From assembly GCF_003334385.1 (NCBI RefSeq), contig NZ_QOWN01000042.1: 38,068 nt of DNA; one strand, written 5' to 3'. Position numbers and translations under genes: made by a program. The stretch is from Escherichia coli. GTDB taxonomy: Bacteria; Pseudomonadota; Gammaproteobacteria; Enterobacterales; Enterobacteriaceae. Each line of letters begins with the position of its first letter. Within the stretch, counting starts at the first letter, position 1. Shown here piece by piece: positions 4,392 to 36,164 of this stretch. The notes beneath the pieces were generated by a model. It was not told the origin of the DNA. It did no database searches and worked only from the letters and a program-made list of their open reading frames with translations.

Positions 4392-4417
4392 TGTAGGGTA
4401 CTCGCAGGTTGATATGC

Positions 4418-5623: not shown

Positions 5624-6045
5624 CAGGCTTCTCCTGTAATGGTGCCGCCGATGCGGTGAGATTTACCGCGAAACAGCGCAACCGTTTTTTGTTGTTGGTT
5701 AACAATTTCGATGTCGTAAACACCGGTTTGCTTGCCCTGATGACGTACCTGCGCAGTAGCAGTTAAGGTGTCTCCGGCAAAGCCTGGACGCAAAAAATCA
5801 ATCGTGCAGGCAGAAGCGACGGCTGCCAGCCCCTGGCTATTGCAGGCGTAGGCAAAGGCAGTATCAGCCAGTGAAAATAGCTGCCCGCCGTGGCAACTTT
5901 GATGACCGTTAAGCATTTGTGCAGTGACGGTCATGGTCACTACAGCAAAGCCTTCATCCATTGAGATAATGTCGATGCCAAGCGCTTTGGCGCAGGCATC
6001 GTTCTCATACATTGCATGGGCATTTTGCCAGGCCTTATGACTCAT
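5623..6045 (-). CDS. paaI: PaaI, hotdog-fold phenylacetyl-CoA thioesterase
   Basis: ORF 5623..6129; start placed at MSHKAWQNAH (140 aa). Confidence 0.8.
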   Translation of the reverse strand: MSHKAWQNAHAMYENDACAKALGIDIISMDEGFAVVTMTVTAQMLNGHQSCHGGQLFSLADTAFAYACNSQGLAAVASACTIDFLRPGFAGDTLTATAQVRHQGKQTGVYDIEIVNQQQKTVALFRGKSHRIGGTITGEA

Positions 6046-7462: not shown

Positions 7463-7463
7463 G

Positions 7464-10086: not shown

Positions 10087-10093
10087 GGCATCC

Positions 10094-20829: not shown

Positions 20830-23465
20830 TGTTTTTCCTCACACTCTTTTCCTTGCGGACAGTCATTTCCCGGCAGACGTGCGTTCTGCTCCAGCCATGC
20901 CTGGAGATTATCGCCAAAGCGTAAACTGCGCCACAGCGTAAAAATATTCTCTTCATGATGGTAATTAAGGTTTACCGTACCGCTTTTACCATCAACGCGA
21001 CTGGTACCTGTAATGTTGGCCTGCATGGTTAATAAACCGAGATTATCTAAATTAATTTTTGTCGATGAACGGCTAATTTCCATATAGCGCAACCAGTTAA
21101 TTGCTGAACCCGCAGTCATATTGTCTTTTACCACCGCATCCGCAGTGTCTTTATCCAGTCGCAATGTCATCGGCCCGCTATTCGCCAGCCAGCCATCTTT
21201 CACAATCCATTTTTCATTGTTCAGCCATAACGGCAGTGCACCACTAAATGCCCCGGACATGGCGAATTGTTTCGGATTGACGGCGCTAACCAGTTCGCTG
21301 GATGAGAGATTATTCAGCCGCAACAGCGCCGGGTCATGTTGCGGCATACGTAATTGTTTCATCAGTACGTTACCGCCTAACACATCGACGCTAACATCAG
21401 TCAACAGCAAGGGTTCTTCTTCAGTCCACGGATAACGCCCTTGCAAATCAGCCGTAATATTTTTCGCTGTCACCAGATTAATCACTTCGGCAATTCGCAA
21501 CGTAACGGGGCCGCGAGTCCCCAGATGCCAGGCTCCATCGGCAAAACGGAAAGGCAGGACAAAATCGACACCGTTAACCTGATTATCTGGCATCCAGGCA
21601 CTACCGCCTTTCAACACGCCGTGTCCTCCCGCGCGGAATCCTTGTTCAGGCGCAGCAGAAAATGCAACCTGAGCATACAGTTCACCATCGCGTAAGTTCA
21701 TCTTCCAGTCGGGTGGCACCAGCGGCTGGAATACGGTCAGTGATTGTTTAGGCCACCAGGCGTTACCGCGCAGACGAATACCGTCCCAGCGACCATTTAC
21801 CCGAACCGGGCCAATCTCACCAGCATGTAAATCGCCTTTAAAGAGGAAATAGGTAGGATCGCGCCCATCGACGCTAAATTTTAAGGTTGATGGCGGTAAC
21901 ACACTGCCGCCAGTGAACAGCGTTTGCCCGGCGTCCAGTGACAGCGCGCCGCTAAAGGAGGGATGCTGTGCGTCACGTACCCAGACGATGGGCTTGTCGA
22001 GAATTAATCGCGGCTTTTCTACCGTCATCGTACCGTATTGTAACTGGTCGAAACCGGTGGAGAGATCGGTCAGCGTAATCGTGCTGTCATGCCACTCACC
22101 TTTTCCTGCGACATCCCAGGTGGCATTCATCGGTGTAAAACTCCCTTTTCCCCAGTAGCGCCACTGCCAGCGGCCAGCGTCAGGGAGAAAATCATTCGCC
22201 AGCCCATCCATATGCAGCACGAAATCGCCCAGTTCATTTTCATGCGCCTGCAAGATGGCCTGCAAACGTCCGTCAACACCACGTTGGGTGACTTTTACAC
22301 CCGCTAAAGGCCAGCGGATTTCATCGATGTCCAGCGAATCGATGACTCTTCCCTTTGAACGAAGTAACGCGCCTGGCTCAAAGGTCAGCGTTGGGTCAGA
22401 CAGACTTCCACTTAGCTGCGCAGGTAAACGGGCATATAAAATGAGGTCCGCCTGTTTCGCTTCACCGGTCAGCTGCAGAGGCAGCTGACTGTTATCCATG
22501 CTTAATTTTCCTGGGCCAAAATTAAGCACCGCGTTGCCCTTACCCGCTTGCCCCTGGGTCAGCACACTCAGTCGTCCGCTGACCAGAGCGTTCTCAAGCC
22601 CTGCCTGCCAGTTGTCGACTTTGACACCCAGTCGGCCACTCAAAGGAAAACCTGCATACGGCCAGCTCCAGCGACCATCGCTTACGGTCAATTGTTGACG
22701 AGTAATTTGCCACGGCAAATCGAGCAACGGATCGCCGTTATCCCGTGCCAGCACGATCAATTGCCCGCTATTTTCCTGCCAGTCCAGCTCGGCATCCACC
22801 AGTGACGGTTCCTGCGGCAAGTTTAACGTCGCAGTAGCATGCCCACTTACAGGAAGTCCATCCGGCACGAGCGGCATAGCAAATTCCCCCACCAGTTTTA
22901 CCGGCGGCTGATTTTCAAACGCGACGACATCCAGTTCGCTGACTGTAAGTTGTTGCCCTTTCAGCTGGCCTTGAAATTTAACTTTTTCGCCCTGATAACG
23001 CAGTTGCTGGATATCAGAGGTTAATGCGAGAGAGAGTTTTCCCTGCCATTCCTGCCAGGGAGAAAAAATCAGTTTATCGATATTGATCCAGGTGTTAGGC
23101 AGCATGGCCTGCCACTGCGCGAGTGTTTTTGGAGCGGCTGGCGATTGCTCCGTCTGCGGCAATTTCGCCAGACAAGCAGAATCAAGTTCTACCGTGCCGA
23201 CGTTCAATAACCAGCGGCTGGGATGTGAAAGGCTGGCGTTGGTGATATGCGCAAGCTGACAATCTCCCACCAGATAACGGAGATCGGGAATGATTAAACC
23301 TTTACGCGTAATGCGTGGGCTTTCATCTAATGCAATACGTGTCCCGAGCGGTAGCCAGATGCCCGCCAGCGTGGGAACCCACAGCCCGAGCGTCATCAGC
23401 AGCGTCAACGGCACAAGAATAATCAGTAATAACAGCGCGAGAACGGCTTTATATTTACCCAGCAT
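20826..23465 (-). CDS. ydbH: Large AsmA-like inner-membrane-anchored periplasmic protein (proposed lipid transport)
   Basis: 879-aa ORF with N-terminal transmembrane helix; first gene of ydbH-ynbE-ydbL. Confidence 0.85.
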   Translation of the reverse strand: MLGKYKAVLALLLLIILVPLTLLMTLGLWVPTLAGIWLPLGTRIALDESPRITRKGLIIPDLRYLVGDCQLAHITNASLSHPSRWLLNVGTVELDSACLAKLPQTEQSPAAPKTLAQWQAMLPNTWINIDKLIFSPWQEWQGKLSLALTSDIQQLRYQGEKVKFQGQLKGQQLTVSELDVVAFENQPPVKLVGEFAMPLVPDGLPVSGHATATLNLPQEPSLVDAELDWQENSGQLIVLARDNGDPLLDLPWQITRQQLTVSDGRWSWPYAGFPLSGRLGVKVDNWQAGLENALVSGRLSVLTQGQAGKGNAVLNFGPGKLSMDNSQLPLQLTGEAKQADLILYARLPAQLSGSLSDPTLTFEPGALLRSKGRVIDSLDIDEIRWPLAGVKVTQRGVDGRLQAILQAHENELGDFVLHMDGLANDFLPDAGRWQWRYWGKGSFTPMNATWDVAGKGEWHDSTITLTDLSTGFDQLQYGTMTVEKPRLILDKPIVWVRDAQHPSFSGALSLDAGQTLFTGGSVLPPSTLKFSVDGRDPTYFLFKGDLHAGEIGPVRVNGRWDGIRLRGNAWWPKQSLTVFQPLVPPDWKMNLRDGELYAQVAFSAAPEQGFRAGGHGVLKGGSAWMPDNQVNGVDFVLPFRFADGAWHLGTRGPVTLRIAEVINLVTAKNITADLQGRYPWTEEEPLLLTDVSVDVLGGNVLMKQLRMPQHDPALLRLNNLSSSELVSAVNPKQFAMSGAFSGALPLWLNNEKWIVKDGWLANSGPMTLRLDKDTADAVVKDNMTAGSAINWLRYMEISRSSTKINLDNLGLLTMQANITGTSRVDGKSGTVNLNYHHEENIFTLWRSLRFGDNLQAWLEQNARLPGNDCPQGKECEEKQ

Positions 23466-23672
23466 GGGTAGTTAATATCCTGATTTAGCGAAAAATTAAG
23501 CATTCAATACGGGTATTGTGGCATGTTTAACCGTTCAGTTGAAGGTTGCGCCTACACTAAGCATAGTTGTTGATGAATTTTTCAATATCGCCATAGCTTT
23601 CAATTAAATTTGAAATTTTGTAAAATATTTTTAGTAGCTTAAATGTGATTCAACATCACTGGAGAAAGTCTT

Positions 23673-24662
23673 ATGAAACTCGCCGTTTATAGCACAAAAC
23701 AGTACGACAAGAAGTACCTGCAACAGGTGAACGAGTCCTTTGGCTTTGAGCTGGAATTTTTTGACTTTCTGCTGACGGAAAAAACCGCTAAAACTGCCAA
23801 TGGCTGCGAAGCGGTATGTATTTTCGTAAACGATGACGGCAGCCGCCCGGTGCTGGAAGAGCTGAAAAAGCACGGCGTTAAATATATCGCCCTGCGCTGT
23901 GCCGGTTTCAATAACGTCGACCTTGACGCGGCAAAAGAACTGGGGCTGAAAGTAGTCCGTGTTCCAGCCTATGATCCAGAGGCCGTTGCTGAACACGCCA
24001 TCGGTATGATGATGACGCTGAACCGCCGTATTCACCGCGCGTATCAGCGTACCCGTGATGCTAACTTCTCTCTGGAAGGTCTGACCGGCTTTACTATGTA
24101 TGGCAAAACGGCAGGCGTTATCGGTACCGGTAAAATCGGTGTGGCGATGCTGCGCATTCTGAAAGGTTTTGGTATGCGTCTGCTGGCGTTCGATCCGTAT
24201 CCAAGTGCAGCGGCGCTGGAACTCGGTGTGGAGTATGTCGATCTGCCAACCCTGTTCTCTGAATCAGACGTTATCTCTCTGCACTGCCCGCTGACACCGG
24301 AAAACTATCATCTGTTGAACGAAGCCGCCTTCGAACAGATGAAAAATGGCGTGATGATCGTCAATACCAGTCGCGGTGCATTGATTGATTCTCAGGCAGC
24401 AATTGAAGCGCTGAAAAATCAGAAAATTGGTTCGTTGGGTATGGACGTGTATGAGAACGAACGCGATCTATTCTTTGAAGATAAATCCAACGACGTGATC
24501 CAGGATGACGTATTCCGTCGCCTGTCTGCCTGCCACAACGTGCTGTTTACCGGGCACCAGGCATTCCTGACAGCAGAAGCTCTGACCAGTATTTCTCAGA
24601 CTACGCTGCAAAACTTAAGCAATCTGGAAAAAGGCGAAACCTGCCCGAACGAACTGGTTTAA
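23673..24662 (+). CDS. ldhA: Fermentative NAD-dependent D-lactate dehydrogenase
   Basis: 329-aa D-2-hydroxyacid dehydrogenase ORF (GxGxxG motif GVIGTGKIG). Confidence 0.9.
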   Translation: MKLAVYSTKQYDKKYLQQVNESFGFELEFFDFLLTEKTAKTANGCEAVCIFVNDDGSRPVLEELKKHGVKYIALRCAGFNNVDLDAAKELGLKVVRVPAYDPEAVAEHAIGMMMTLNRRIHRAYQRTRDANFSLEGLTGFTMYGKTAGVIGTGKIGVAMLRILKGFGMRLLAFDPYPSAAALELGVEYVDLPTLFSESDVISLHCPLTPENYHLLNEAAFEQMKNGVMIVNTSRGALIDSQAAIEALKNQKIGSLGMDVYENERDLFFEDKSNDVIQDDVFRRLSACHNVLFTGHQAFLTAEALTSISQTTLQNLSNLEKGETCPNELV

Positions 24663-24772
24663 TCTTGCCGCTCCCCTGCATTCCAGGGGAGCTGATTCAG
24701 ATAATCCCCAATGACCTTTCATCCTCTATTCTTAAAATAGTCCTGAGTCAGAAACTGTAATTGAGAACCACA

Positions 24773-25195
24773 ATGAAGAAAGTAGCCGCGTTTGTTGCGC
24801 TAAGCCTGCTGATGGCGGGATGTGTAAGTAATGACAAAATTGCTGTTACGCCAGAACAGCTACAGCATCATCGCTTTGTGCTGGAAAGCGTAAACGGTAA
24901 GCCCGTGACCAGCGATAAAAATCCGCCAGAAATCAGCTTTGGTGAAAAAATGATGATTTCTGGCAGCATGTGTAACCGCTTTAGCGGTGAAGGCAAACTG
25001 TCTAATGGTGAACTGACAGCCAAAGGGCTGGCAATGACCCGTATGATGTGCGCTAACCCGCAGCTTAATGAACTCGATAACACCATTAGCGAAATGCTGA
25101 AAGAAGGTGCACAAGTGGATCTGACCGCGAACCAGTTAACGCTGGCGACCGCAAAACAGACATTAACTTATAAGCTGGCGGATTTAATGAATTAA
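24773..25195 (+). CDS. hslJ: Heat-inducible lipoprotein HslJ
   Basis: ORF 24761..25195 begins at a TTG; start placed at ATG 24773 (MKKVAAFVALSLLMAGC lipobox), 140 aa. Confidence 0.85.
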   Translation: MKKVAAFVALSLLMAGCVSNDKIAVTPEQLQHHRFVLESVNGKPVTSDKNPPEISFGEKMMISGSMCNRFSGEGKLSNGELTAKGLAMTRMMCANPQLNELDNTISEMLKEGAQVDLTANQLTLATAKQTLTYKLADLMN

Positions 25196-25458
25196 TAGCT
25201 GCCACAGCTCCCGGCGGCAAGTGACTGTTCGCTACAGCGTTTGCCGTTGGGTAATGCACACATCCCAATCGCCGTACCATCCAGTTGACGGGCAACAGAA
25301 AGCGAACCGCCGATCATTGCACAATTTGCTTCTCCACTACTGGACATCGACGCTTTTAAACCTGGCGCTACGTGCGCGGCAGTCGCCTGCTGAACAGGTT
25401 CACTACTACACGCCGACAACAATAAAGCGGCACACCCTACCCAAAACGCTGCTCGCAT
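25192..25458 (-). CDS. ydbJ: Small DUF333 lipoprotein
   Basis: 88-aa ORF with lipobox (LLSAC); convergent with hslJ and overlapping its end by 4 nt. Confidence 0.75.
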   Translation of the reverse strand: MRAAFWVGCAALLLSACSSEPVQQATAAHVAPGLKASMSSSGEANCAMIGGSLSVARQLDGTAIGMCALPNGKRCSEQSLAAGSCGSY

Positions 25459-25731
25459 CTTTTCTTCCTCTGATCTTCAAGCCAAACGACACCGCCATAA
25501 ATAATAGGCAGCACAGAGGGCGGCGTCGAGAGCTGTCCTGCGCGTTGCCCCGCATTTTTACTTTTTTATGGCTATTTTTTTGCCCTCTGTTTGATCAAAA
25601 CATTCATTACGCTGATGTGGGGGACACAAAAGCGAAAATGCAGAAGAAAGCCATTTGCTAAAATTGAAAGATTACTACTGGGCGCGCAGCAATTTCGTGC
25701 GCCCCTCATTTGCGCAATGTAAGGGTGTCAT

Positions 25732-28700
25732 ATGATTACTATTGACGGTAATGGCGCGGTTGCTTCGGTCGCATTTCGCACCAGTGAAGTTATCGCCATC
25801 TACCCTATTACCCCCAGTTCCACGATGGCAGAACAGGCTGATGCCTGGGCCGGAAACGGCTTAAAGAACGTTTGGGGAGACACACCACGCGTGGTTGAAA
25901 TGCAGTCGGAAGCGGGTGCTATCGCTACCGTGCATGGCGCTTTGCAGACGGGTGCCCTTTCAACATCGTTTACGTCATCGCAGGGTTTGCTGCTGATGAT
26001 CCCGACGCTGTACAAACTGGCAGGCGAACTAACACCGTTTGTCCTGCATGTAGCGGCACGTACCGTTGCCACACATGCACTCTCTATTTTTGGCGATCAT
26101 TCCGACGTTATGGCGGTGCGCCAGACGGGTTGCGCGATGTTGTGTGCAGCAAACGTCCAGGAAGCGCAAGACTTTGCTCTCATTTCGCAAATCGCGACGC
26201 TGAAAAGCCGCGTGCCATTTATTCATTTCTTTGATGGTTTCCGCACGTCCCACGAAATCAATAAAATTGTCCCGCTGGCCGATGACACGATTCTTGATCT
26301 CATGCCGCAGGTCGAAATTGATGCTCATCGCGCCCGGGCACTCAACCCGGAACATCCGGTGATCCGCGGTACGTCCGCCAATCCTGACACTTATTTCCAG
26401 TCTCGCGAAGCCACCAACCCATGGTACAACGCGGTCTATGACCATGTTGAACAGGCGATGAATGATTTCTCTGCCGCGACAGGTCGTCAGTATCAGCCGT
26501 TTGAATATTACGGGCATCCGCAAGCGGAACGGGTGATTATCCTGATGGGCTCTGCCATTGGCACCTGTGAAGAAGTGGTTGATGAATTGCTAACCCGTGG
26601 CGAAAAAGTTGGCGTGCTGAAAGTTCGCCTGTACCGCCCCTTCTCCGCTAAACATTTACTGCAAGCTCTGCCGGGATCCGTACGCAGCGTGGCGGTACTG
26701 GACAGAACCAAAGAACCCGGTGCCCAGGCAGAACCGCTCTATCTGGATGTAATGACCGCACTGGCAGAAGCCTTTAATAATGGCGAGCGCGAAACTCTGC
26801 CCCGTGTCATTGGTGGGCGCTATGGTCTTTCATCCAAAGAATTTGGCCCAGACTGTGTACTGGCGGTATTTGCCGAGCTCAACGCGGCTAAACCGAAAGC
26901 GCGCTTTACGGTTGGTATTTACGATGATGTGACCAATCTGTCACTGCCGTTGCCGGAAAACACCCTGCCAAACTCGGCGAAACTGGAAGCCTTGTTTTAT
27001 GGCCTTGGTAGTGATGGCAGCGTTTCCGCGACCAAAAACAATATCAAGATTATCGGTAATTCCACGCCGTGGTACGCACAGGGCTATTTTGTTTACGACT
27101 CCAAAAAGGCGGGCGGCCTGACGGTTTCTCACCTTCGAGTGAGCGAACAGCCGATTCGTTCCGCTTATCTCATTTCCCAGGCTGATTTTGTTGGCTGCCA
27201 CCAGTTGCAGTTTATCGATAAATATCAGATGGCTGAGCGTTTAAAACCTGGCGGCATTTTCCTGCTCAACACGCCGTACAGCGCAGATGAAGTGTGGTCG
27301 CGCTTGCCGCAAGAAGTTCAGGCCGTGTTAAACCAGAAAAAAGCGCGCTTCTATGTGATTAACGCGGCGAAAATCGCCCGCGAATGTGGCCTGGCGGCCC
27401 GTATTAATACCGTCATGCAGATGGCTTTTTTCCATCTGACGCAAATTCTGCCTGGCGATAGCGCCCTCGCAGAATTGCAGGGTGCGATTGCCAAAAGTTA
27501 CAGTAGCAAAGGCCAGGATCTGGTGGAACGCAACTGGCAGGCTCTGGCGCTGGCGCGTGAATCCGTAGAAGAAGTTCCGTTGCAACCGGTAAATCCGCAC
27601 AGCGCCAATCGACCGCCAGTGGTTTCCGATGCCGCCCCTGATTTCGTGAAAACCGTAACCGCTGCGATGCTCGCCGGGCTTGGTGACGCCCTCCCCGTTT
27701 CGGCGCTGCCGCCAGACGGCACCTGGCCGATGGGCACTACGCGCTGGGAAAAACGCAATATCGCCGAAGAGATCCCCATCTGGAAAGAGGAACTCTGTAC
27801 CCAATGTAACCACTGCGTTGCCGCTTGCCCACACTCAGCTATTCGCGCAAAAGTGGTGCCGCCTGAAGCGATGGAAAACGCCCCTGCCAGCCTGCATTCG
27901 CTGGATGTGAAATCGCGTGATATGCGCGGGCAGAAATATGTCTTGCAGGTGGCACCGGAAGATTGCACCGGTTGTAACCTGTGCGTCGAAGTTTGCCCGG
28001 CGAAAGACCGTCAGAATCCAGAGATTAAAGCCATCAATATGATGTCTCGCCTGGAACATGTCGAAGAAGAGAAAATCAATTACGATTTCTTCCTCAACCT
28101 GCCAGAAATCGACCGTAGCAAACTGGAACGTATTGATATTCGTACATCGCAGCTGATTACACCGCTGTTTGAATATTCAGGTGCTTGCTCCGGTTGTGGC
28201 GAGACGCCGTATATTAAATTACTGACTCAGCTCTATGGCGACCGGATGTTGATCGCTAACGCCACTGGCTGTTCTTCAATTTATGGCGGTAACCTGCCCT
28301 CTACACCGTATACCACCGATGCCAACGGTCGTGGGCCGGCATGGGCGAACTCTCTATTTGAAGATAATGCCGAATTTGGCCTTGGTTTCCGCCTGACGGT
28401 CGATCAACACCGTGTCCGCGTGCTGCGTCTGCTGGATCAATTTGCCGATAAAATCCCGGCGGAATTACTGACGGCGTTGAAATCAGACGCCACGCCAGAG
28501 GTTCGTCGTGAACAGGTTGCAGCTTTACGCCAGCAACTCAACGATGTTGCCGAAGCACATGAACTGCTACGTGATGCAGATGCACTGGTGGAAAAATCAA
28601 TCTGGCTGATTGGTGGTGATGGCTGGGCTTACGATATCGGCTTTGGCGGTCTGGATCATGTATTGAGTTTGACGGAAAACGTCAACATTCTGGTGCTGGA

Positions 28701-29256
28701 TACGCAATGCTATTCCAACACCGGTGGTCAGGCGTCGAAAGCGACACCGCTGGGTGCAGTAACTAAATTTGGCGAGCACGGCAAACGTAAAGCGCGTAAA
28801 GATCTTGGCGTCAGTATGATGATGTACGGTCATGTTTATGTGGCGCAGATTTCTCTCGGCGCGCAGCTGAACCAGACGGTGAAAGCGATTCAGGAAGCGG
28901 AAGCGTATCCGGGGCCATCGCTGATCATTGCTTATAGCCCGTGTGAAGAGCATGGTTACGATCTGGCACTCAGCCACGACCAGATGCGCCAACTCACAGC
29001 TACCGGCTTCTGGCCGCTATATCGCTTTGATCCGCGTCGTGCCGATGAAGGCAAACTGCCGCTGGCCTTGGATTCACGCCCGCCGTCAGAAGCACTGGAA
29101 GAAACGTTACTTCACGAGCAACGTTTCCGTCGGCTGAATTCGCAGCAGCCAGAAGTGGCAGAACAGTTATGGAAAGATGCTGCAGCTGATTTGCAAAAAC
29201 GCTATGACTTCCTGGCACAAATGGCCGGAAAAGCGGAAAAAAGCAACACCGATTAA
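25732..29256 (+). CDS. ydbK: Pyruvate:ferredoxin/flavodoxin oxidoreductase (single-polypeptide PFOR with two 4Fe-4S ferredoxin motifs and TPP domain)
   Basis: 1174-aa ORF; CxxCxxCxxxCP motifs (CTQCNHCVAACP, CTGCNLCVEVCP) and C-terminal TPP-binding region. Confidence 0.9.
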   Translation: MITIDGNGAVASVAFRTSEVIAIYPITPSSTMAEQADAWAGNGLKNVWGDTPRVVEMQSEAGAIATVHGALQTGALSTSFTSSQGLLLMIPTLYKLAGELTPFVLHVAARTVATHALSIFGDHSDVMAVRQTGCAMLCAANVQEAQDFALISQIATLKSRVPFIHFFDGFRTSHEINKIVPLADDTILDLMPQVEIDAHRARALNPEHPVIRGTSANPDTYFQSREATNPWYNAVYDHVEQAMNDFSAATGRQYQPFEYYGHPQAERVIILMGSAIGTCEEVVDELLTRGEKVGVLKVRLYRPFSAKHLLQALPGSVRSVAVLDRTKEPGAQAEPLYLDVMTALAEAFNNGERETLPRVIGGRYGLSSKEFGPDCVLAVFAELNAAKPKARFTVGIYDDVTNLSLPLPENTLPNSAKLEALFYGLGSDGSVSATKNNIKIIGNSTPWYAQGYFVYDSKKAGGLTVSHLRVSEQPIRSAYLISQADFVGCHQLQFIDKYQMAERLKPGGIFLLNTPYSADEVWSRLPQEVQAVLNQKKARFYVINAAKIARECGLAARINTVMQMAFFHLTQILPGDSALAELQGAIAKSYSSKGQDLVERNWQALALARESVEEVPLQPVNPHSANRPPVVSDAAPDFVKTVTAAMLAGLGDALPVSALPPDGTWPMGTTRWEKRNIAEEIPIWKEELCTQCNHCVAACPHSAIRAKVVPPEAMENAPASLHSLDVKSRDMRGQKYVLQVAPEDCTGCNLCVEVCPAKDRQNPEIKAINMMSRLEHVEEEKINYDFFLNLPEIDRSKLERIDIRTSQLITPLFEYSGACSGCGETPYIKLLTQLYGDRMLIANATGCSSIYGGNLPSTPYTTDANGRGPAWANSLFEDNAEFGLGFRLTVDQHRVRVLRLLDQFADKIPAELLTALKSDATPEVRREQVAALRQQLNDVAEAHELLRDADALVEKSIWLIGGDGWAYDIGFGGLDHVLSLTENVNILVLDTQCYSNTGGQASKATPLGAVTKFGEHGKRKARKDLGVSMMMYGHVYVAQISLGAQLNQTVKAIQEAEAYPGPSLIIAYSPCEEHGYDLALSHDQMRQLTATGFWPLYRFDPRRADEGKLPLALDSRPPSEALEETLLHEQRFRRLNSQQPEVAEQLWKDAAADLQKRYDFLAQMAGKAEKSNTD

Positions 29257-29284
29257 ATGCTCTGGATAAGGATTATCCAATTCT

Positions 29285-29316
29285 AAAAAAAAAAGCCCGG
29301 ACGACTGTTCGGGCTT
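29285..29316. terminator. Bidirectional intrinsic terminator shared by ydbK (+) and micC (−): A-run, agcccgg/ccgggct hairpin, T-run
   Basis: Hairpin with flanking A10 and T5 runs read directly. Confidence 0.75.
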
Positions 29317-29396
29317 GTCTTTTTATATGTTGGAAAATCAGTGGCAATGCAATGGCCCAACAGAAAATAAAATCTGTGACAATAAAGGCATATAAC
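29287..29396 (-). ncRNA. micC: MicC small regulatory RNA (Hfq-dependent repressor of ompC translation)
   Basis: Minus strand reads GTTATATGCCTTTATTGTCACAGATTTTATTTTCTGTTGGGCCATTGCATTGCCACTGATTTTCCAACATATAAAAAGACAAGCCCGAACAGTCGTCCGGGCTTTTTTTTT, matching the MicC sequence as I recall it; located between ydbK and ompN as described for micC. Confidence 0.85.
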
Positions 29397-29623
29397 CCGC
29401 GCAGAATAACGTATAGCAAATTAAAAGTATAATTTTTATTTTGTATGTATTATCTTCGATACATTCACCAGACTTATTATCATTTCAGAGGAATTATTTG
29501 ATTAAGGTTTTACTTAAGGCGTAACAAATGATATTTATCGGCTAACTGAACTTCTCCTTTAGGATGTTTTCACTCCCCGAAATGGGGATAAAAGGCAAAT
29601 AAAATAACTAAAGGATTTATTCA

Positions 29624-30757
29624 ATGAAAAGCAAAGTACTGGCACTTTTAATTCCTGCCCTGCTCGCCGCAGGTGCTGCACATGCAGCCGAAGTTTATAA
29701 TAAAGACGGCAACAAATTAGATCTGTATGGCAAAGTTGATGGCCTGCATTATTTTTCTGATAATTCAGCGAAAGATGGCGACCAGAGCTATGCGCGTCTG
29801 GGTTTTAAAGGCGAAACCCAAATTAACGATCAACTCACTGGCTACGGTCAATGGGAATACAATATTCAGGCAAACAACACTGAATCTTCAAAAAACCAGT
29901 CATGGACCCGTCTGGCATTTGCCGGGCTGAAATTTGCAGATTACGGTTCTTTCGATTACGGACGTAATTATGGCGTAATGTACGACATCGAAGGCTGGAC
30001 CGATATGCTGCCTGAATTTGGCGGTGACTCTTATACCAATGCAGACAACTTTATGACTGGTCGAGCCAATGGCGTCGCGACTTATCGTAATACTGATTTC
30101 TTCGGTCTGGTAAATGGTCTGAACTTCGCGGTGCAGTATCAAGGTAACAACGAAGGAGCCAGTAATGGTCAGGAAGGCACCAACAACGGACGTGATGTTC
30201 GCCATGAAAACGGTGACGGCTGGGGTCTTTCCACAACATATGATTTAGGCATGGGCTTTAGCGCTGGTGCGGCATACACCTCTTCTGACCGCACCAATGA
30301 CCAGGTTAACCATACTGCGGCGGGTGGTGATAAAGCAGACGCGTGGACTGCTGGGCTAAAATACGATGCTAACAATATTTACCTGGCAACCATGTATTCA
30401 GAAACGCGTAATATGACCCCGTTTGGCGACAGCGATTATGCTGTGGCAAACAAAACCCAGAATTTTGAAGTCACTGCACAGTACCAGTTTGATTTTGGTC
30501 TGCGTCCGGCAGTCTCTTTCCTGATGTCTAAAGGCCGTGACCTGCACGCTGCGGGTGGTGCAGACAACCCGGCAGGTGTTGATGATAAAGATCTGGTTAA
30601 ATACGCCGATATTGGCGCGACTTACTATTTCAATAAAAACATGTCCACCTACGTTGACTATAAAATCAACCTGTTGGATGAAGATGACAGCTTCTACGCT
30701 GCCAATGGCATCTCTACCGATGATATTGTCGCTTTAGGTCTGGTTTATCAGTTCTAA
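29624..30757 (+). CDS. ompN: Outer membrane porin N (OmpC/OmpF-family general porin)
   Basis: 377-aa ORF with signal peptide ([21 protein letters not shown]) and C-terminal ...LVYQF beta-barrel signature. Confidence 0.9.
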
Positions 30758-30765
30758 ATCCTCCT

Positions 30766-30789
30766 GCCCGCTGTTATGGCGGGCTTTTT
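30766..30789 (+). terminator. Rho-independent terminator after ompN (gcccgc / gcgggc stem, T5)
   Basis: Hairpin plus T-run 8 bp after the stop. Confidence 0.7.
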
Positions 30790-30816
30790 CTGCTTATTCT
30801 TCCTCCTTTGATCTAA

Positions 30817-31332
<516 letters not shown>

Positions 31333-31339
31333 CACTAAC

Positions 31340-31364
31340 GCCCGCACATTGCTGCGGGCTTTTT
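31340..31364 (+). terminator. Rho-independent terminator after uspF (gcccgca / tgcgggc stem, T5)
   Basis: Hairpin plus T-run 8 bp after the stop. Confidence 0.7.
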
Positions 31365-31660
31365 GATTCATTTCGCAAATGTGCTGACATTTTCCCCTCT
31401 AATCCGTACCATACACGCCACAGTTTTTTATATCAGATTTCTTATGCTGGGCGTTCCGGCATGACGCATACTCTTCTGATGCCATATAACGAATTGAGTC
31501 GCTTTTAAATGTCGCAAAATCAAGAAATTAGTAAGAAAGAACAATACAACCTGAACAAGTAAGGGCAAAAATCACAACTCTCTGACTCATAAGTATTTTA
31601 CTTATTTTTCAATGTGTTAAATATCATCAGCGACAACAATAAGCTACGATAACCCACTCT

Positions 31661-31710
31661 TTTTTTGCCCCTTTTTTGCCCCTTTTGCAGCGCTTTGCCC
31701 CATTTTTGCC
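31661..31710. repeat. Degenerate ~11-bp tandem repeat (TTTTTTGCCCC ×2, then TTTTGCAGCGC, TTTGCCCCA, TTTTTGCC) in the uspF–sitA intergenic region
   Basis: Read directly. Confidence 0.6.
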
Positions 31711-31822
31711 ATCAACAATTTTCCTCATCAAGTCATTTCAAAGCCTAATAGGTACCCTACTTTTTTCCTCAGTACCACGTCGCCAGCAGGAAACAACCTA
31801 ATCCCGGTTCGGATCTAAAATT

Positions 31823-31841
31823 GCTAATGATAATCATTTTC
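31823..31841. promoter_or_regulatory. Fur box (gCTAATGATAATCATTtTC; 17/19 match to GATAATGATAATCATTATC) in the sitA promoter
   Basis: Match to the canonical Fur consensus ~80 bp upstream of sitA. Confidence 0.7.
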
Positions 31842-31863
31842 ATTTTGTGTTGCTTATGCTATA

Positions 31864-31885
31864 AAACATAGCCGTTGCTATGTTT
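31864..31885. promoter_or_regulatory. MntR operator: perfect palindrome AAACATAGC-cgtt-GCTATGTTT between the Fur box and the sitA start
   Basis: Matches the MntR box palindrome described for mntH/sitA promoters (from memory). Confidence 0.7.
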
Positions 31886-31917
31886 GTTCTAATTTTGCTC
31901 ACTATAGGTACTAAATT

Positions 31918-32832
31918 ATGTACTCAATAAAAAAAGTAACCATGCTCTTGGGGTGCCTCGCCCTCACCTGCTCGATCGCATTTCAGGCGAGTGCAACTGA
32001 AAAATTCAAGGTCATTACAACATTTACCATCATCGCAGATATGGCCAAAAACGTGGCTGGAGATGCTGCAGAAGTCTCATCCATAACCAAGCCCGGTGCA
32101 GAAATTCATGAGTATCAGCCTACCCCTGGCGATATTAAACGTGCGCAGGGGGCACAACTGATTCTCGCCAATGGTATGAATCTGGAATTGTGGTTCCAAC
32201 GCTTTTACCAGCATCTTAATGGGGTTCCAGAAGTAATTGTCTCTTCGGGTGTGACGCCAGTAGGGATCACTGAAGGCCCCTATGAGGGCAAACCTAACCC
32301 CCATGCCTGGATGTCGCCAGATAATGCTCTGATTTACGTCGATAATATTCGTGATGCGTTGATAAAATACGATCCGGCAAATGCACAAACCTACCAACGT
32401 AATGCCGATACTTATAAAGCCAAGATTACCCAAACCCTTGCCCCCCTGCGTAAGCAGATTGCTGAACTCCCTGAGAATCAGCGATGGATGGTCACCAGTG
32501 AAGGGGCTTTTTCTTATCTCGCACGCGATTTGGGGCTAAAAGAGCTTTATCTGTGGCCGATTAATGCCGATCAACAAGGCACGCCGCAGCAGGTACGTAA
32601 GGTTGTTGATATGGTGAAGAAAAATCATATCCCGGCAGTCTTTAGCGAGAGTACGATTTCCGATAAACCAGCGCGTCAGGTTGCGCGTGAAACCGGCGCG
32701 CACTACGGCGGTGTACTCTATGTCGATTCCCTGAGCACAGAAAACGGCCCGGTACCTACGTATATCGACCTTCTGAAGGTTACTACCAGTACGCTGGTAC
32801 AGGGAATTAAAGCCGGGAAAAGGGAGAAATAA
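31918..32832 (+). CDS. sitA: Periplasmic Mn2+/Fe2+-binding protein of an ABC importer (cluster A-I substrate-binding protein)
   Basis: 304-aa ORF with signal peptide; first of four translationally coupled genes in SBP–ATPase–permease–permease order. Confidence 0.85.
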
Positions 32833-33659
32833 TGATGCAATCTGCGGGCATTGTCGTTAATGATGTTACTGTCACCTGGCGTAACGGGCACACAGCACTG
32901 CGCGATGCATCCTTCACAGTACCAAGTGGATCTATTGCCGCTCTGGTTGGGGTAAACGGTTCCGGAAAATCGACGTTGTTTAAAGCGATTATGGGATTTG
33001 TGCGTCTGACCAGCGGAAAGATATCTGTTCTGGGTATTCCCACGCGACAGGCGCTACAGAAAAACCTGGTTGCCTACGTCCCTCAGTCAGAAGAGGTTGA
33101 CTGGTCATTTCCTGTACTAGTGGAAGATGTGGTGATGATGGGCCGCTATGGGCACATGGGTATGTTGCGTATAGCCAAAAAGAGGGATCGTCAGATTGTC
33201 ACCGATGCGCTGGAACGTGTCGATATGGTGGATTTTCGCCATCGACAAATCGGCGAGCTTTCCGGTGGACAAAAGAAACGCGTCTTTCTGGCGAGAGCGA
33301 TTGCACAGCAGGGTGATGTGATCCTGCTGGATGAACCTTTTACCGGCGTTGATGTGAAAACCGAAGCGAAAATCATCAGCCTGTTGAGGGAGTTACGCGC
33401 GGAAGGCAAGACGATGCTTGTCTCAACGCACAATCTCGGCTCAGTCACGACATTTTGCGATTATACGGTCATGGTCAAAGGCACCGTCCTGGCAAGCGGG
33501 CCGACAGACACCACTTTTACAGCCGAGAACCTGGAGCTGGCTTTTAGCGGCGTACTGCGCCATGTCACACTTAACGGCTCGGAAGAAAGCATTATTACTG
33601 ACGATGAACACCCTTTTGTGGCACATCGACCGTCAGCGGTGCAGAGGGAAGCAAGATGA
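32832..33659 (+). CDS. sitB: ABC transporter ATP-binding protein (Walker [10 protein letters not shown], signature LSGGQKKR, Walker B ILLDEP)
   Basis: 275-aa ORF; motifs read directly. Confidence 0.85.
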
Positions 33660-34513
33660 ACGTGCTACTGGAACCCTTCAGCTATGAATATATGCTCAAT
33701 GCGATGTGGGTCTCGGCGATGGTCGGCGGTCTCTGCGCTTTCCTGTCATGCTATCTGATGCTAAAAGGCTGGTCGCTGATTGGCGATGCGCTGTCGCACT
33801 CTATTGTCCCGGGTGTTGCGGGGGCATATATGCTGGGGCTTCCGTTTTCTCTGGGAGCCTTCTTTTCCGGCGGACTGGCAGCGGGCAGCATGCTGTTTCT
33901 TAACCAACGCACTCGCTTAAAAGAAGATGCCATCATCGGCCTGATCTTCTCCTCCTTTTTTGGCCTGGGGCTGTTTATGGTGTCATTGAACCCGACATCC
34001 GTGAACATTCAGACCATCGTCCTGGGCAATATTCTGGCAATCGATCCGGCGGATATCCTGCAACTCACTATCATTGGCATTCTCTCGATCATCGTGCTTT
34101 TTTTCAAATGGAAAGATCTTATGGTGACCTTTTTCGACGAGAATCACGCCCGTGCTATTGGATTGCATCCGGGCAGATTAAAAATCCTCTTCTTCACCCT
34201 GCTGTCAGTTTCGACCGTTGCGGCGCTGCAAACGGTTGGTGCCTTTCTGGTGATCTGTCTGGTGGTGACTCCCGGTGCAACAGCATGGTTGTTAACCGAT
34301 CGTTTTCCCCGCCTGCTCATAATTGCTGTAACTATTGGCAGTGTAACCAGTTTCCTCGGCGCGTGGGTCAGTTACTTTCTGGACGGCGCGACAGGTGGAA
34401 TCATCGTGGTGGCGCAGACACTGCTGTTTCTTTTAGCATTTGTATTTGCGCCCACCCATGGGCTTTTGGCAAATCGTCGGCGTGCGCATAAAGCGCTGGA
34501 GGATCGCTCATGA
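33656..34513 (+). CDS. sitC: ABC transporter permease (Mn/Fe importer)
   Basis: 285-aa hydrophobic multi-helix ORF; ATGA overlap with sitB. Confidence 0.85.
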
Positions 34514-35367
34514 TGGCATTATTACTGGAGCCACTGCAGTTCACCTTTATGAGTCACGCACTGCTGATTTCACTGGTAGTTTCCATACCCTGTGCGCTGC
34601 TGTCGGTCTTTCTGGTCCTGAAAGGTTGGGCACTGATGGGTGACGCGATGAGTCATGCGGTTTTTCCTGGTATTGTGCTTGCCTGGATTCTGAGGTTACC
34701 TCTGGCTACAGGGGCATTCGTCGCCGGAGTATTCTGCGCGGTGGCGACGGGATACCTGAAAGACAACAGCCGAATCAAGCAAGATACAGTGATGGGGATT
34801 GTTTTTTCTGGCATGTTTGCCGCAGGTCTGATCTTGTATATTGCAGTCAAACCAGACGTACATCTTGACCATATTCTTTTCGGCGACATGCTCGGGGTAA
34901 CCATCGGCGATATAATCCAGACGGTGATTATTGCCGGGCTGGTTACACTTGTTATTAGCGTAAAATGGCGGGATTTTTTGCTGTTCAGCTTTGATTATCA
35001 ACAGGCGCAGGTAAGCGGTTTGCATACGAGATGTCTGCATTATGGGCTGCTGTGCATGGTCTCTCTGACCATTGTGGCGACGCTGAAAGCGGTAGGTATC
35101 ATTCTCTCCATTTCTCTGCTCATTGCGCCTGGCGCCATTGCGGTACTCCTGACACAACGCTTTCATATTGCGCTCCTACTGGCGATTGGCATATCGGTAA
35201 TAGTGTCAATGACTGGTGTCTGGTTGTCCTTTTTTATCGACAGTGCACCAGCTCCGACGATTGTCGTCTTATTCGCGGTTGTGTTCATCATGACGTTCAC
35301 CGTTACCAGCATCAACGCACGCACAAAGGGAAACACCCATACACAGGATTTGTCATCACCCAATTAG
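34510..35367 (+). CDS. sitD: ABC transporter permease (Mn/Fe importer), paralogous to SitC
   Basis: 285-aa hydrophobic ORF; ATGA overlap with sitC. Confidence 0.85.
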   Translation: MMALLLEPLQFTFMSHALLISLVVSIPCALLSVFLVLKGWALMGDAMSHAVFPGIVLAWILRLPLATGAFVAGVFCAVATGYLKDNSRIKQDTVMGIVFSGMFAAGLILYIAVKPDVHLDHILFGDMLGVTIGDIIQTVIIAGLVTLVISVKWRDFLLFSFDYQQAQVSGLHTRCLHYGLLCMVSLTIVATLKAVGIILSISLLIAPGAIAVLLTQRFHIALLLAIGISVIVSMTGVWLSFFIDSAPAPTIVVLFAVVFIMTFTVTSINARTKGNTHTQDLSSPN

Positions 35368-35531
35368 CACAACATCCGAGGACAGCATCGTCCGCTGGCC
35401 CACAGAAGTCCGGAAAGTCATGGAAGGTCGTTGTTGGGAGGAGGTACAAATTCTCTCATGCAAAAAATACGTAAAATCGATAATAGCTGGAAATAATTCA
35501 ATACATGCACTCTCGAAAGTGCATCAGCCAA

Positions 35532-35565
35532 CCGCAGAACGTTATTGCATACAACGTTTCTGCGG
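35532..35565. other. Imperfect inverted repeat (ccgcagaacgtt ... aacgtttctgcgg) in the short sitD–tfa spacer; possible terminator or junction element
   Basis: Read directly; no clear U-tract. Confidence 0.3.
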
Positions 35566-35579
35566 CATAATCCCAATGA

Positions 35580-36164
35580 TTACTCCCTGACAGGGTTCGT
35601 AGGCCACTCAATATCAGGTGCAGTTGATGTATCAACACGGTTCAGCAACACCCGATACTTTTTCCAGGCTTCCAGCAACAAGGTTTCTTCCTCCGTTGCG
35701 ATTTCCAGATCTGCAGCATCCTGAAGCGGCGCAATATGCTCACTGGCTACCTGCATCAGGCTGTTTTTTGTTTCTTCCGCCTCCCGGATCCGGAACAGTT
35801 TTTCTGCTTCTGCATCTTTCACCCAGGCTGTGCCGTTCCACTTCTGAAACTCCCCTTCCGGGGATAACCAGGTAACATTTTCCGGTAACGGACCGAGTTC
35901 AGAAATAAATAACGCGTCGCCGGAAGCCACGTCATAGACGGTTTTTCCCCGATGATCTTCAACGAGATGCCACGATGCCTCATCACTGTTGAAAACAGCC
36001 ACGAAGCCTGCCGGAATATCTGGTGGTGCAATATCGGTACTGTTTGCTGGCAGACCTGTATGAGGCGGAATATATGCATCACCTTCACCAATAAATTCAT
36101 TAGTTCCGGCCAGCAGATTATAAATTTTTATGGTCCGTGCTTGTTCACTCATTCTGAATGCCAT
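35580..36164 (-). CDS. tfa: Phage tail fibre assembly (chaperone) protein, Tfa family (TfaR-like)
   Basis: 194-aa [27 protein letters not shown]..., closely resembling lambdoid Tfa proteins as I recall them; ATG overlaps the stf stop (TAATG). Confidence 0.8.

What the first reader, a model, noticed from the sequence alone, without database searches (positions are those of the whole stretch)
25192..25195. Convergent hslJ and ydbJ overlap at their 3' ends
The hslJ stop (25193..25195) and the ydbJ stop on the opposite strand (25192..25194) overlap, so the two lipoprotein genes have no intergenic spacer and any terminator must lie inside the neighbouring coding sequence. This implies overlapping 3' UTRs and possible antisense interaction.
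Basis: seen in the sequence. Interest (0 to 1): 0.15.

Follow-up and report, generated by a model that had tools for sequence, protein, structure and literature searches.

The report
hslJ–ydbJ stop-codon overlap, E. coli
Two small E. coli lipoprotein genes that face each other really do share four bases at their stop codons, and each one's messenger RNA ends inside the other gene; this is real and conserved, but it is already annotated and already in published transcript maps.

Summary
Observation confirmed. hslJ (24773..25195, +) and ydbJ (25192..25458, -) share a palindromic TTAA that holds both TAA stops. MG1655 RefSeq annotates the same overlap, and 5413 of 5426 complete E. coli genomes carry the region. 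Both are real genes: HslJ is a META-domain protein matching the NCBIfam HslJ equivalog, and YdbJ is an 88-aa DUF333 protein, 80-99% identical across Enterobacteriaceae.

Published 3'-end mapping (TRS, PMC10687069) puts the hslJ mRNA end at window 25260. That is 9 nt after a U-less hairpin (25210..25251) inside ydbJ codons 70-83. A ydbJ-sense end maps at 24917, after a hairpin plus U-run inside hslJ codons 49-65. The two RNAs would be complementary over about 344 nt. ExcludonFinder (PMC12288877) already lists ydbJ-hslJ as a convergent excludon.

New here: 75 of 79 enterobacterial species have between -7 and +13 nt between the stops, so the 4-bp overlap is one state of a drifting junction. The hslJ 3' hairpin is conserved, shows compensatory changes, and restricts ydbJ synonymous codons.

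Regulatory antisense interaction is plausible but untested. Verdict: ordinary, already known, low interest.

The parts
24773..25195 (+). hslJ coding sequence (140 aa, lipoprotein, META domain), stop TAA at 25193..25195
   Evidence: ORF list. Pfam META PF03724, E 2.2e-25. NCBIfam equivalog NF007766 'heat shock protein HslJ', 260 bits against a cut-off of 168. RefSeq b1379.
25192..25458 (-). ydbJ coding sequence (88 aa, DUF333, lipobox LLLSAC), stop TAA = reverse complement of 25192..25194
   Evidence: ORF list. Pfam DUF333 PF03891, E 1.4e-13. 242 homologues, 80-99% identical, nearly all 88 aa, terminal Tyr invariant in the 16-sequence alignment. RefSeq b4529.
25192..25195 (.). TTAA: the 4 bp shared by the two coding sequences (both stop codons)
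   Evidence: Sequence and annotation. The same junction state occurs in E. albertii, E. whittamii and other Escherichia; Raoultella ornithinolytica and R. planticola use CTAG instead.
25210..25251 (+). Stable U-less hairpin in the hslJ 3' UTR, built from the antisense of ydbJ codons 70-83; proposed 3'-end protective or termination structure of the hslJ mRNA
   Evidence: MFE -25 kcal/mol on the hslJ-sense strand against -16.9 on the ydbJ-sense strand. Inverted repeat I1. Synonymous randomisation: 0.25% of variants fold as well, z about -3.2; mean z -2.7 over 75 distinct sequences. 86.6% of cells paired in 52 species against at most 48.7% for slid controls, with 3 pairs changed on both sides. 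Synonymous codon entropy is reduced in the stem codons. The same hairpin (-25.6 kcal/mol) is reported at the mapped hslJ terminus.
25253..25262 (+). Experimentally mapped 'primary' 3' terminus of hslJ mRNA (peak K-12 1441254..1441263, dominant 1441256 = window 25260), opposite ydbJ codon 67; longest U-run is 1
   Evidence: PMC10687069 Supplementary Data. 3' UTR of 66 nt with no nearby TSS. Coordinate conversion K12 = 1466516 - window, checked on the ydbK, ydbJ, hslJ and ldhA ends.
24917..24966 (-). Intrinsic-terminator-like element on the ydbJ-sense strand inside the hslJ CDS (antisense of hslJ codons 49-65): 13-bp stem with a large loop (24966..24923), then AUUUUU; mapped 3' terminus at 24917/24918
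   Evidence: My scan gives -17.6 kcal/mol with tail ATTTTTATCGCT. The TRS terminus at K-12 1441593..1441604 (dominant 1441598/9) is annotated 'Antisense hslJ', with hairpin -18.2 and U-tract 5/6. The element is present only in Escherichia species.
24917..25260 (.). Region where the two mapped RNAs would be complementary (344 nt), if the RNA ending at 24917 starts at the ydbJ promoter
   Evidence: Derived from the two mapped termini. ydbJ-hslJ is listed as a convergent excludon. The only minus-strand promoter-like site between 26000 and 24917 is the one upstream of ydbJ.
24627..24627 (-). Peak of a Rho-dependent termination region for ydbJ-sense read-through (K-12 1441889 on +, antisense to the ldhA 3' end), next to a weak hairpin plus UUUUU at 24669..24628
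   Evidence: PMC7815308 Supplementary file 2: -BCM 80 reads upstream and 17 downstream, +BCM 77 and 69, Rho score 4.2, p 1.5e-6, using 800-nt windows. The hairpin was found.
25405..25508 (+). Published Hfq-binding genomic aptamer antisense to the ydbJ 5' UTR and start codon (hslJ-sense strand, 210-313 nt past the hslJ stop); it lies within a C-rich, G-poor stretch (25396..25515, C/G 2.6-3.0)
   Evidence: PMC2887942: coordinates 1439032-1439135 in U00096.2, 'ydbJ antisense', with the asRNA detected by strand-specific RT-PCR. The +1976 offset to U00096.3 rests on my memory of the old ydbK coordinates. Composition.
25487..25529 (-). ydbJ promoter region: promoter-like TCGACG-17-TATTAT (25529..25501) and the published TSS (about 25487, 29 nt upstream of the ATG)
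   Evidence: Promoter scan. PMC4447067 gives a sigma-S ChIP-seq peak and a 'validated TSS 1439053 (ydbJ)'. PMC5493296 gives a sigma-S SELEX site between ydbK and ydbJ. The same coordinate-offset caveat applies.
24711..24738 (+). Promoter-like site upstream of hslJ (ATGACC-16-TAAAAT)
   Evidence: Consensus scan only. The scan found no more sites than in shuffled sequence, so this is weak.

Best explanation
This is a real, evolutionarily stable tail-to-tail gene pair with no intergenic spacer. The two transcription units therefore end inside each other.

Shown:
- The two CDSs share TTAA.
- Both genes are genuine and conserved.
- In MG1655 the steady-state hslJ mRNA ends at window 25260. That is 9 nt after a strong U-less hairpin made from the antisense of ydbJ codons 70-83.
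- A ydbJ-sense RNA ends at 24917 in the U-run of a hairpin terminator embedded in hslJ codons 49-65. Residual ydbJ-sense read-through is stopped by Rho near the ldhA 3' end.

Inferred:
- hslJ transcription is ended by Rho downstream of the hairpin, where the RNA is untranslated, C-rich and G-poor. The RNA is then trimmed 3'-to-5' back to the hairpin, which protects the message. This is the Dar and Sorek type of 3' end.
- The hairpin is under selection. It constrains ydbJ synonymous sites, and the ydbJ protein sequence in turn prevents a U-tract from evolving after it.
- The 4-bp overlap has no function of its own. It is one state of a junction that drifts between -7 and +13 nt through changes in the variable HslJ C-terminus, while the YdbJ stop stays fixed.
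- The roughly 344-nt complementarity makes antisense interference possible, but nothing shows that it is regulatory.
For: - Overlap.
- Gene reality: Pfam; NCBIfam; 242 YdbJ homologues with an invariant terminal Tyr; ydbJ TSS and sigma-S binding.
- Junction drift: in 79 species the spacer is -7 in 7, -4 in 7, 0 in 24, 1-13 in 37 and 43 or more in 4.
- hslJ 3' end at the hairpin: TRS data in two data sheets with three replicates each. I had predicted the hairpin independently beforehand.
- Hairpin under selection: synonymous-randomisation z is -3.2 in E. coli, and the mean is -2.7 over 75 sequences on the hslJ-sense strand against -1.2 on the ydbJ-sense strand. 86.6% of cells are paired, with 26 cells changed on both sides against 7.7 +/- 5.8 in shuffles. 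Stem codons have low synonymous entropy while loop codons are at the maximum (0.60 against 0.73, one-sided p 0.024).
- ydbJ-sense terminator: predicted, mapped.
- Rho dependence of ydbJ-sense read-through.
- C-rich, G-poor RNA downstream of the hslJ hairpin.
- General rule that Rho-dependent transcripts end just after U-less stem-loops: PMC6061677 abstract.
- Transcript overlap seen in RNA-seq.
Against: - No Rho-termination region was called downstream of hslJ in the +/-BCM data set. The only minus-strand call nearby is just upstream of the hslJ ATG. Rho dependence of the hslJ end is therefore inferred, not shown.
- The curated Term-seq list of the same study has no 3' end at hslJ or ydbJ. This may reflect low expression.
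- The RNA ending at 24917 is annotated only as 'antisense hslJ'. Its origin at the ydbJ promoter is assumed.
- The hairpin statistics come from related, non-independent sequences. The randomisation used E. coli codon usage for all species. The region tested was chosen after the hairpin had been seen.
- The entropy test is only p = 0.024.
- An RNA antisense to the ydbJ 5' end exists beyond the mapped hslJ end. So 25260 is not the only end, or there is a separate antisense RNA.
Confidence: 0.75

Rival explanations
1. Regulatory excludon. The complementary 3' regions are used for control. Transcription of one gene lowers expression of the other, by RNA polymerase collision or by RNase III cleavage of the duplex. 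Induction of hslJ (heat shock, CysB) and of ydbJ (sigma-S-bound promoter) would then be mutually antagonistic.
For: ydbJ-hslJ is in the published E. coli excludome. The mapped termini give about 344 nt of complementarity. The spacer-less convergent arrangement is kept in 79 of 79 species. The two genes have different promoters and regulators.
Against: No expression anticorrelation, dsRNA signal or RNase III dependence is available for this pair. For genes whose CDSs overlap, the excludon criterion is met trivially whenever both are transcribed. The ydbJ-sense terminator inside hslJ exists only in Escherichia, so the extent of overlap is not conserved. Read counts in the published data are low, at 60-80 reads per 800 nt.
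Confidence: 0.25
2. The hslJ-sense RNA that continues past the hairpin is a functional Hfq-binding antisense RNA. It pairs with the ydbJ 5' UTR and start codon and controls ydbJ translation or stability.
For: A genomic-SELEX Hfq aptamer maps antisense to the ydbJ 5' end, and the 'ydbJ asRNA' was detected by strand-specific RT-PCR. No plus-strand promoter-like site lies inside ydbJ, so hslJ read-through is the simplest source.
Against: The aptamer came from an in-vitro selection on genomic fragments. Neither a size nor a function of the asRNA was reported. The TRS list shows no terminus on that strand between the ydbK-internal site and the hslJ primary end. The hairpin plus U-runs at 25507..25582 that I considered as its terminator is unremarkable (z -1.3) and my scanner did not call it.
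Confidence: 0.1
3. The 25210..25251 hairpin is a by-product of the conserved YdbJ peptide (PNGK...LAAG codons happen to be complementary) and of GC content. The RNA end at 25260 is incidental.
For: The amino-acid sequence of this segment is nearly invariant, which by itself fixes most stem bases. Randomised synonymous versions still fold to -15 kcal/mol on average. 6 of the 18 pairs never vary.
Against: The observed fold is 12 kcal/mol better than the synonymous mean, and only 0.25% of variants reach it. The excess is strand-specific, favouring the hslJ sense. U-A replaces C-G at 3 pairs, including an A82T change matched by a synonymous N71 change. Stem codons show reduced synonymous diversity and loop codons do not. 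A mapped RNA end sits exactly at its foot.
Confidence: 0.12
4. Annotation artefact: ydbJ is not a real gene, so there is no true gene overlap.
For: It is a small ORF that was added late to the K-12 annotation (b4529). It has no NCBIfam match.
Against: It has a DUF333 domain. There are 242 homologues at 80-99% identity with conserved length, lipobox and cysteines, while synonymous sites vary freely. A TSS is mapped and sigma-S binds upstream.
Confidence: 0.02

Closest known systems
Short convergent (tail-to-tail) CDS overlaps in prokaryotes
   Same: Two genuine genes on opposite strands share a few bases that include both stop codons. This class made up 7% (3,035 of 42,055) of well-characterised overlaps in 338 genomes (PMC2478687). 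Such overlaps arise through 3'-end changes in one gene; here that gene is hslJ, whose C-terminus is variable.
   Different: Nothing essential differs. This is a 4-bp TTAA case. The overlap length is not conserved between genera (-7 to +13 nt), whereas the tight junction is.
Convergent excludons (ExcludonFinder E. coli excludome)
   Same: Neighbouring convergent genes have overlapping transcripts, with the terminators lying inside the partner's transcription unit. ydbJ-hslJ is listed by name.
   Different: The defining functional outcome, mutually exclusive expression or RNase III processing, has not been shown for this pair.
Rho-dependent 3' ends protected by U-less stem-loops (Dar and Sorek 2018, PMC6061677)
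   Same: The steady-state hslJ end lies a few nt after a stable stem-loop with no U-tract, and C-rich, G-poor RNA follows.
   Different: Bicyclomycin sensitivity and exonuclease trimming have not been shown for hslJ. Here the stem-loop is also protein-coding on the other strand.
Bidirectional terminators and programmed RNAP collision at convergent gene pairs (Ju et al. 2019, cited from memory; Wang et al. preprint 10.1101/2022.10.23.513370)
   Same: It is a convergent pair, and a stem-loop lies close to the gene boundary (for the concept).
   Different: There is no shared hairpin between the genes. The two mapped ends are 344 nt apart and use different structures. The 25210..25251 hairpin lies upstream of the ydbJ stop in the ydbJ sense, so it cannot be ydbJ's terminator.

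Membership tests
Convergent overlapping gene pair | Both ORFs are genuine protein-coding genes | tested here: met
   Pfam META and DUF333; NCBIfam HslJ equivalog; YdbJ is conserved at 80-99% identity with free synonymous variation.
Convergent overlapping gene pair | Opposite strands, with 3' ends sharing nucleotides | tested here: met
   TTAA at 25192..25195 holds both stops.
Convergent excludon | Transcripts of the two genes overlap | tested here: met
   Published termini at window 25260 (hslJ) and 24917 (ydbJ sense); excludome listing. The origin of the 24917 RNA at the ydbJ promoter is assumed.
Convergent excludon | Reciprocal or mutually exclusive expression, or RNase III processing of the duplex | not testable with these tools
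   No expression or dsRNA data for this pair could be reached. No supplementary files of PMC12288877 are held as text.
Intrinsic (Rho-independent) terminator: hslJ 3' hairpin 25210..25251 | G+C-rich stem-loop | tested here: met
   -25 kcal/mol, 18 pairs.
Intrinsic (Rho-independent) terminator: hslJ 3' hairpin 25210..25251 | U-tract immediately after the stem | tested here: not met
   The tail is UAAUGCACACAU. The longest U-tract reported is 1. The terminator scan did not call it.
Intrinsic (Rho-independent) terminator: ydbJ-sense element 24966..24917 | Stem-loop followed by a U-tract, with an RNA 3' end in the U-tract | tested here: met
   13-bp stem of -17.6 kcal/mol, then AUUUUU. The mapped end is at the last U, with a U-tract of 5/6. 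One atypical feature is the 18-nt loop.
Rho-dependent end with a protective stem-loop (Dar and Sorek type): hslJ | Precise 3' end just downstream of a stable U-less stem-loop | tested here: met
   The end is 9 nt after the hairpin.
Rho-dependent end with a protective stem-loop (Dar and Sorek type): hslJ | C-rich, G-poor rut-like RNA downstream | tested here: inconclusive
   C/G is 1.6-1.9 at 61-180 nt past the stop and 2.6-3.0 at 201-320 nt past it. This is composition only.
Rho-dependent end with a protective stem-loop (Dar and Sorek type): hslJ | Read-through increases when Rho is inhibited | tested here: inconclusive
   No Rho region was called downstream of hslJ. The nearest same-strand call is at K-12 1441748, just upstream of the hslJ ATG (64/72 against 61/176 reads).
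Bidirectional terminator shared by a convergent pair | One hairpin between the genes terminates both transcripts | tested here: not met
   There is no intergenic DNA, and the two mapped ends use different hairpins 344 nt apart.

The most novel reading that the evidence does not exclude
The last third of ydbJ is dual-coding. On one strand it encodes the invariant C-terminus of a DUF333 lipoprotein. On the other strand it encodes a selected RNA hairpin that sets the 3' end and stability of the hslJ mRNA, and this has been maintained across Enterobacteriaceae. In addition, the pair would work as a true excludon: hslJ induction, through read-through RNA that carries an Hfq-binding site over the ydbJ start codon, would silence ydbJ, and the reverse.
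Probability: 0.15. Interest if true: 0.4.

Novelty: already known. Interest (0 to 1): 0.15.

Why it matters
It matters little beyond housekeeping. The overlap is in the reference annotation, the transcript overlap is in a published excludon catalogue, and both RNA ends are in published 3'-end tables. The locus does give a clean, well-documented example of what happens when convergent genes have no spacer. The terminator or stabiliser of one gene is written into the codons of the other. That leaves a measurable footprint on synonymous sites, and it forces a U-less, probably Rho-type, end because the partner's protein sequence forbids a U-tract. This makes it a convenient small test case for studies of dual coding and of excludon function.

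Tried and rejected
1. A plus-strand hairpin (25507..25549) followed by U-runs (25553..25582), between ydbJ and ydbK, as the real hslJ terminator. Rejected: the fold z is only -1.3, my scanner did not call it, and the TRS list has no terminus on that strand between the ydbK-internal site and the hslJ end.
2. The weak minus-strand hairpin at 25220..25199 from the consensus scan as the ydbJ terminator. Rejected: it lies upstream of the ydbJ stop, has a poor tail, its fold is not better than shuffles (z +0.77), and no end is mapped there.
3. The curated Term-seq 3' ends of PMC7815308 list nothing at hslJ or ydbJ.
4. No supplementary tables are held as text for Dar and Sorek 2018, Choe 2022, Conway 2014, the Rend-seq annotation paper or ExcludonFinder.
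5. Conservation of the ydbJ-sense terminator outside Escherichia: absent.
6. Rfam: nothing at the locus; the only hits in the window are MicC and IS009.
7. I did not count convergent overlaps over the whole K-12 genome, because the annotation tool returns at most 50 kb per call. I used literature frequencies instead.

Full report
**Identity of the window.** Positions 1..31711 are 99.96% identical to the reverse complement of E. coli K-12 MG1655 1434806..1466515. The remainder differs in the Rac prophage region, so the strain is a close relative of MG1655 rather than MG1655 itself. Around the finding, K-12 coordinate = 1466516 - window coordinate. I checked this on the ends of ydbK, ydbJ, hslJ and ldhA. 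The local gene order is ldhA (23673..24662, +), hslJ (24773..25195, +), ydbJ (25192..25458, -) and ydbK/pfo (25732..29256, +).

**The observation.** The sequence reads ...AAT TAA TAG.... The hslJ stop is 25193..25195. The ydbJ stop is the reverse complement of 25192..25194. Both lie in the palindrome TTAA. MG1655 RefSeq annotates exactly this 4-bp overlap. The region is present at 95% identity or more in 5413 of 5426 complete E. coli genomes. A 61-nt junction query is at least 99% identical in 5120 of them.

**Are both genes real?**
- HslJ carries a META domain (E 2.2e-25). It matches the NCBIfam HslJ equivalog over its full length, at 260 bits against a cut-off of 168.
- YdbJ carries DUF333 (E 1.4e-13). 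It has 242 homologues at 80-99% identity, almost all 88 aa long.
- In a 16-sequence alignment across genera, the YdbJ lipobox residues L14, A16 and C17, four further cysteines and the terminal Tyr88 are invariant.
- Synonymous sites in ydbJ vary freely in most codons. That is the signature of purifying selection on a protein.
- A ydbJ transcription start site and sigma-S RNA polymerase binding in the ydbK/ydbJ divergent region are published (PMC4447067 and PMC5493296).

**Comparative anatomy of the junction.** A scan of one genome per species returned 80 loci encoding YdbJ. hslJ lies convergent and immediately downstream in all 79 loci with enough flank. The distance between the two stop codons was distributed as follows.

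| Spacer between stops (nt) | Loci | Examples |
|---|---|---|
| -7 | 7 | Phytobacter, Kosakonia |
| -4 | 7 | Escherichia (TTAA); Raoultella ornithinolytica and R. planticola (CTAG) |
| 0 | 24 | most Enterobacter, Leclercia, Lelliottia |
| +1 to +13 | 37 | Citrobacter, mostly 13 |
| +43 | 2 | Salmonella enterica subsp. diarizonae and arizonae |
| +74 / +86 | 2 | Enterobacter sp. 10-1; Raoultella terrigena |

The YdbJ stop is fixed, and the HslJ C-terminus moves. The E. coli 4-bp overlap is thus one state of a junction that has stayed essentially spacer-less across the family. It is not a special feature of its own.

**Where do the transcripts end?** A consensus scan found no convincing terminator at the junction.

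- *hslJ strand, prediction.* Folding showed a strong hairpin on the hslJ-sense strand at 25210..25251, starting 15 nt past the hslJ stop. It folds at -25 kcal/mol, against -16.9 on the ydbJ-sense strand, where two G·U pairs become A·C mismatches. It is followed by UAAUGCACAC with no U-tract.
- *ydbJ strand, prediction.* A simple scanner found a 13-bp stem (24966..24923, -17.6 kcal/mol) followed by AUUUUU, inside the hslJ CDS.
- *Published mapping.* Both predictions match the 3'-end mapping in PMC10687069 (TRS method on RNAtag-seq).
  - The 'primary' hslJ terminus is K-12 1441256, which is window 25260. The paper reports the same hairpin (-25.6 kcal/mol), a longest U-run of 1 and a 66-nt 3' UTR with no nearby TSS.
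  - A terminus at K-12 1441598/9, which is window 24917, is annotated 'antisense hslJ'. The paper reports the same hairpin (-18.2) and a U-tract of 5/6.
  - Each terminus is significant in three replicates in two data sheets.
  - I checked the paper's coordinate convention on the thrL attenuator.
- *Rho.* The +/- bicyclomycin data of PMC7815308 place a Rho-dependent termination region for the ydbJ-sense strand at K-12 1441889, which is window 24627. Read counts there are 80 upstream and 17 downstream without the drug, and 77 and 69 with it (p 1.5e-6). Read-through of the internal terminator is therefore cleared by Rho at the ldhA 3' end.

If the 24917 RNA starts at the ydbJ promoter, the two mRNAs are complementary over 24917..25260, a span of 344 nt. 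No other promoter-like site lies between on that strand. ExcludonFinder (PMC12288877) lists ydbJ-hslJ among 165 convergent excludons seen in at least 50% of 58 MG1655 RNA-seq samples.

**Is the hslJ 3' hairpin selected?** Four lines of evidence bear on this.
- Holding the YdbJ peptide (codons 68-86) fixed and resampling synonymous codons gives -15.4 +/- 3.8 kcal/mol on the hslJ-sense strand. The observed value is -27.1, reached by 0.25% of variants. The ydbJ-sense strand is unremarkable, at the 36th percentile.
- Across 75 distinct sequences the mean z is -2.7 on the hslJ-sense strand and -1.2 on the ydbJ-sense strand.
- On a 52-species alignment, 86.6% of cells form standard pairs, against at most 48.7% for slid registers. 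Three pairs change on both sides. These account for 26 cells, against 7.7 +/- 5.8 in shuffles (0 of 500 shuffles reach it). One example is U-A replacing C-G, where an A82T substitution is matched by a synonymous AAC-to-AAT change at N71.
- Synonymous codon entropy is lower in hairpin codons 70-83 than elsewhere (0.60 against 0.73 of the maximum, one-sided p 0.024). Stem codons are nearly fixed: G72 is GGC in 65 of 74 sequences and A81 is GCC in 62 of 74. Loop codons C75, S76 and E77 are at or near the two-codon maximum.

Caveats: the sequences are related, E. coli codon usage was applied to all species, and the region was chosen after the hairpin had been seen. I read the hairpin as probably selected. 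The ydbJ-sense terminator, by contrast, occurs only in Escherichia.

**Mechanism.** A precise 3' end just after a stable U-less stem-loop, followed by C-rich, G-poor RNA, is the published signature of Rho-dependent transcripts trimmed back to a protective hairpin (PMC6061677 abstract). Here C/G is 1.6-1.9 immediately downstream and 2.6-3.0 at 25396..25515. A U-tract cannot evolve after the hairpin, because the opposite strand encodes the invariant Met-Cys-Ala-Leu of YdbJ. I therefore propose Rho-type termination plus hairpin protection for hslJ. I propose intrinsic termination with a Rho back-up for ydbJ. Rho dependence of the hslJ end is inferred only. No Rho region was called there, and the curated Term-seq list of that study has no entry for either gene.

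**Beyond the mapped end.** A genomic-SELEX Hfq aptamer lies antisense to the ydbJ 5' UTR and start codon, at window 25405..25508 after an offset that I took from memory. A 'ydbJ asRNA' was detected there by strand-specific RT-PCR (PMC2887942). Some hslJ-sense transcription therefore crosses the whole of ydbJ. Whether this RNA has a function is unknown.

**Comparison and verdict.** The locus is a member of the known class of short convergent CDS overlaps, which make up 7% of well-characterised overlaps (PMC2478687). It is a listed convergent excludon in the descriptive sense, but the functional criterion of reciprocal expression or RNase III processing is untested. It is not a shared bidirectional terminator, because the two ends use different hairpins 344 nt apart. 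All of it is already in the annotation and in published catalogues. The only modest addition here is the family-wide spacer-less junction and the evidence that the hslJ 3' hairpin constrains ydbJ codons. Interest is low.

Noticed in passing
window 31712..38068: The window is not MG1655. Positions 1..31711 are 99.96% identical to K-12. The last 6.4 kb (the Rac prophage end and tail-fibre region in K-12) gives only patchy matches of 94-96% identity. An Rfam IS009 hit lies here at 35623..35821 on the minus strand.
   Followed up: partly
window 29279..29399 (-): This is the MicC sRNA gene (Rfam 122 bits). The single indel between the window and K-12 falls at about 29294, inside the 3' part of micC.
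   Followed up: no
window 24670..24699 (+) and 24768 (+): The ldhA 3' hairpin GCUCCCCUG...CAGGGGAGC also lacks a U-tract. The published primary ldhA terminus is K-12 1441817, which is window 24699. A Rho region is called at K-12 1441748, which is window 24768, just upstream of the hslJ ATG. ldhA therefore also looks like a Rho-type end, and Rho may limit ldhA-to-hslJ read-through.
   Followed up: partly
window 24961: This is the only difference from K-12 in the hslJ/ydbJ region. On the ydbJ-sense strand it turns a G·U pair of the internal terminator stem into A-U, and the stem is kept.
   Followed up: yes
L004 (NZ_VLXZ01000060.1, 413 bp): A 413-bp contig in an assembly labelled Alkalicoccobacillus porphyridii carries the ydbJ/hslJ junction with 98% protein identity to E. 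coli YdbJ. This is most likely E. coli contamination of that assembly.
   Followed up: no
window 25405..25515 (+): The hslJ-sense strand over the ydbJ start and 5' UTR is strongly C-rich and G-poor (C 0.36-0.38, G 0.12-0.14). It coincides with a published Hfq-binding aptamer antisense to ydbJ.
   Followed up: partly
L041, L046 (Salmonella enterica subsp. diarizonae and arizonae), locus 2765..2813: In these two Salmonella subspecies the two stops are 43 nt apart. The spacer holds a hairpin-like GCGCGGCG...CGCCTGGCGCG followed by ATAACTTTTC on the ydbJ-sense strand, so that lineage seems to have an intergenic terminator where Escherichia has none. I judged the hairpin by eye and did not fold it.
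   Followed up: no
L082 17240..17243 (K-12 1445687..1445690): ydbH and ynbE, in the same window, overlap by 4 bp in the co-directional sense. This is the ordinary operon-type overlap.
   Followed up: no
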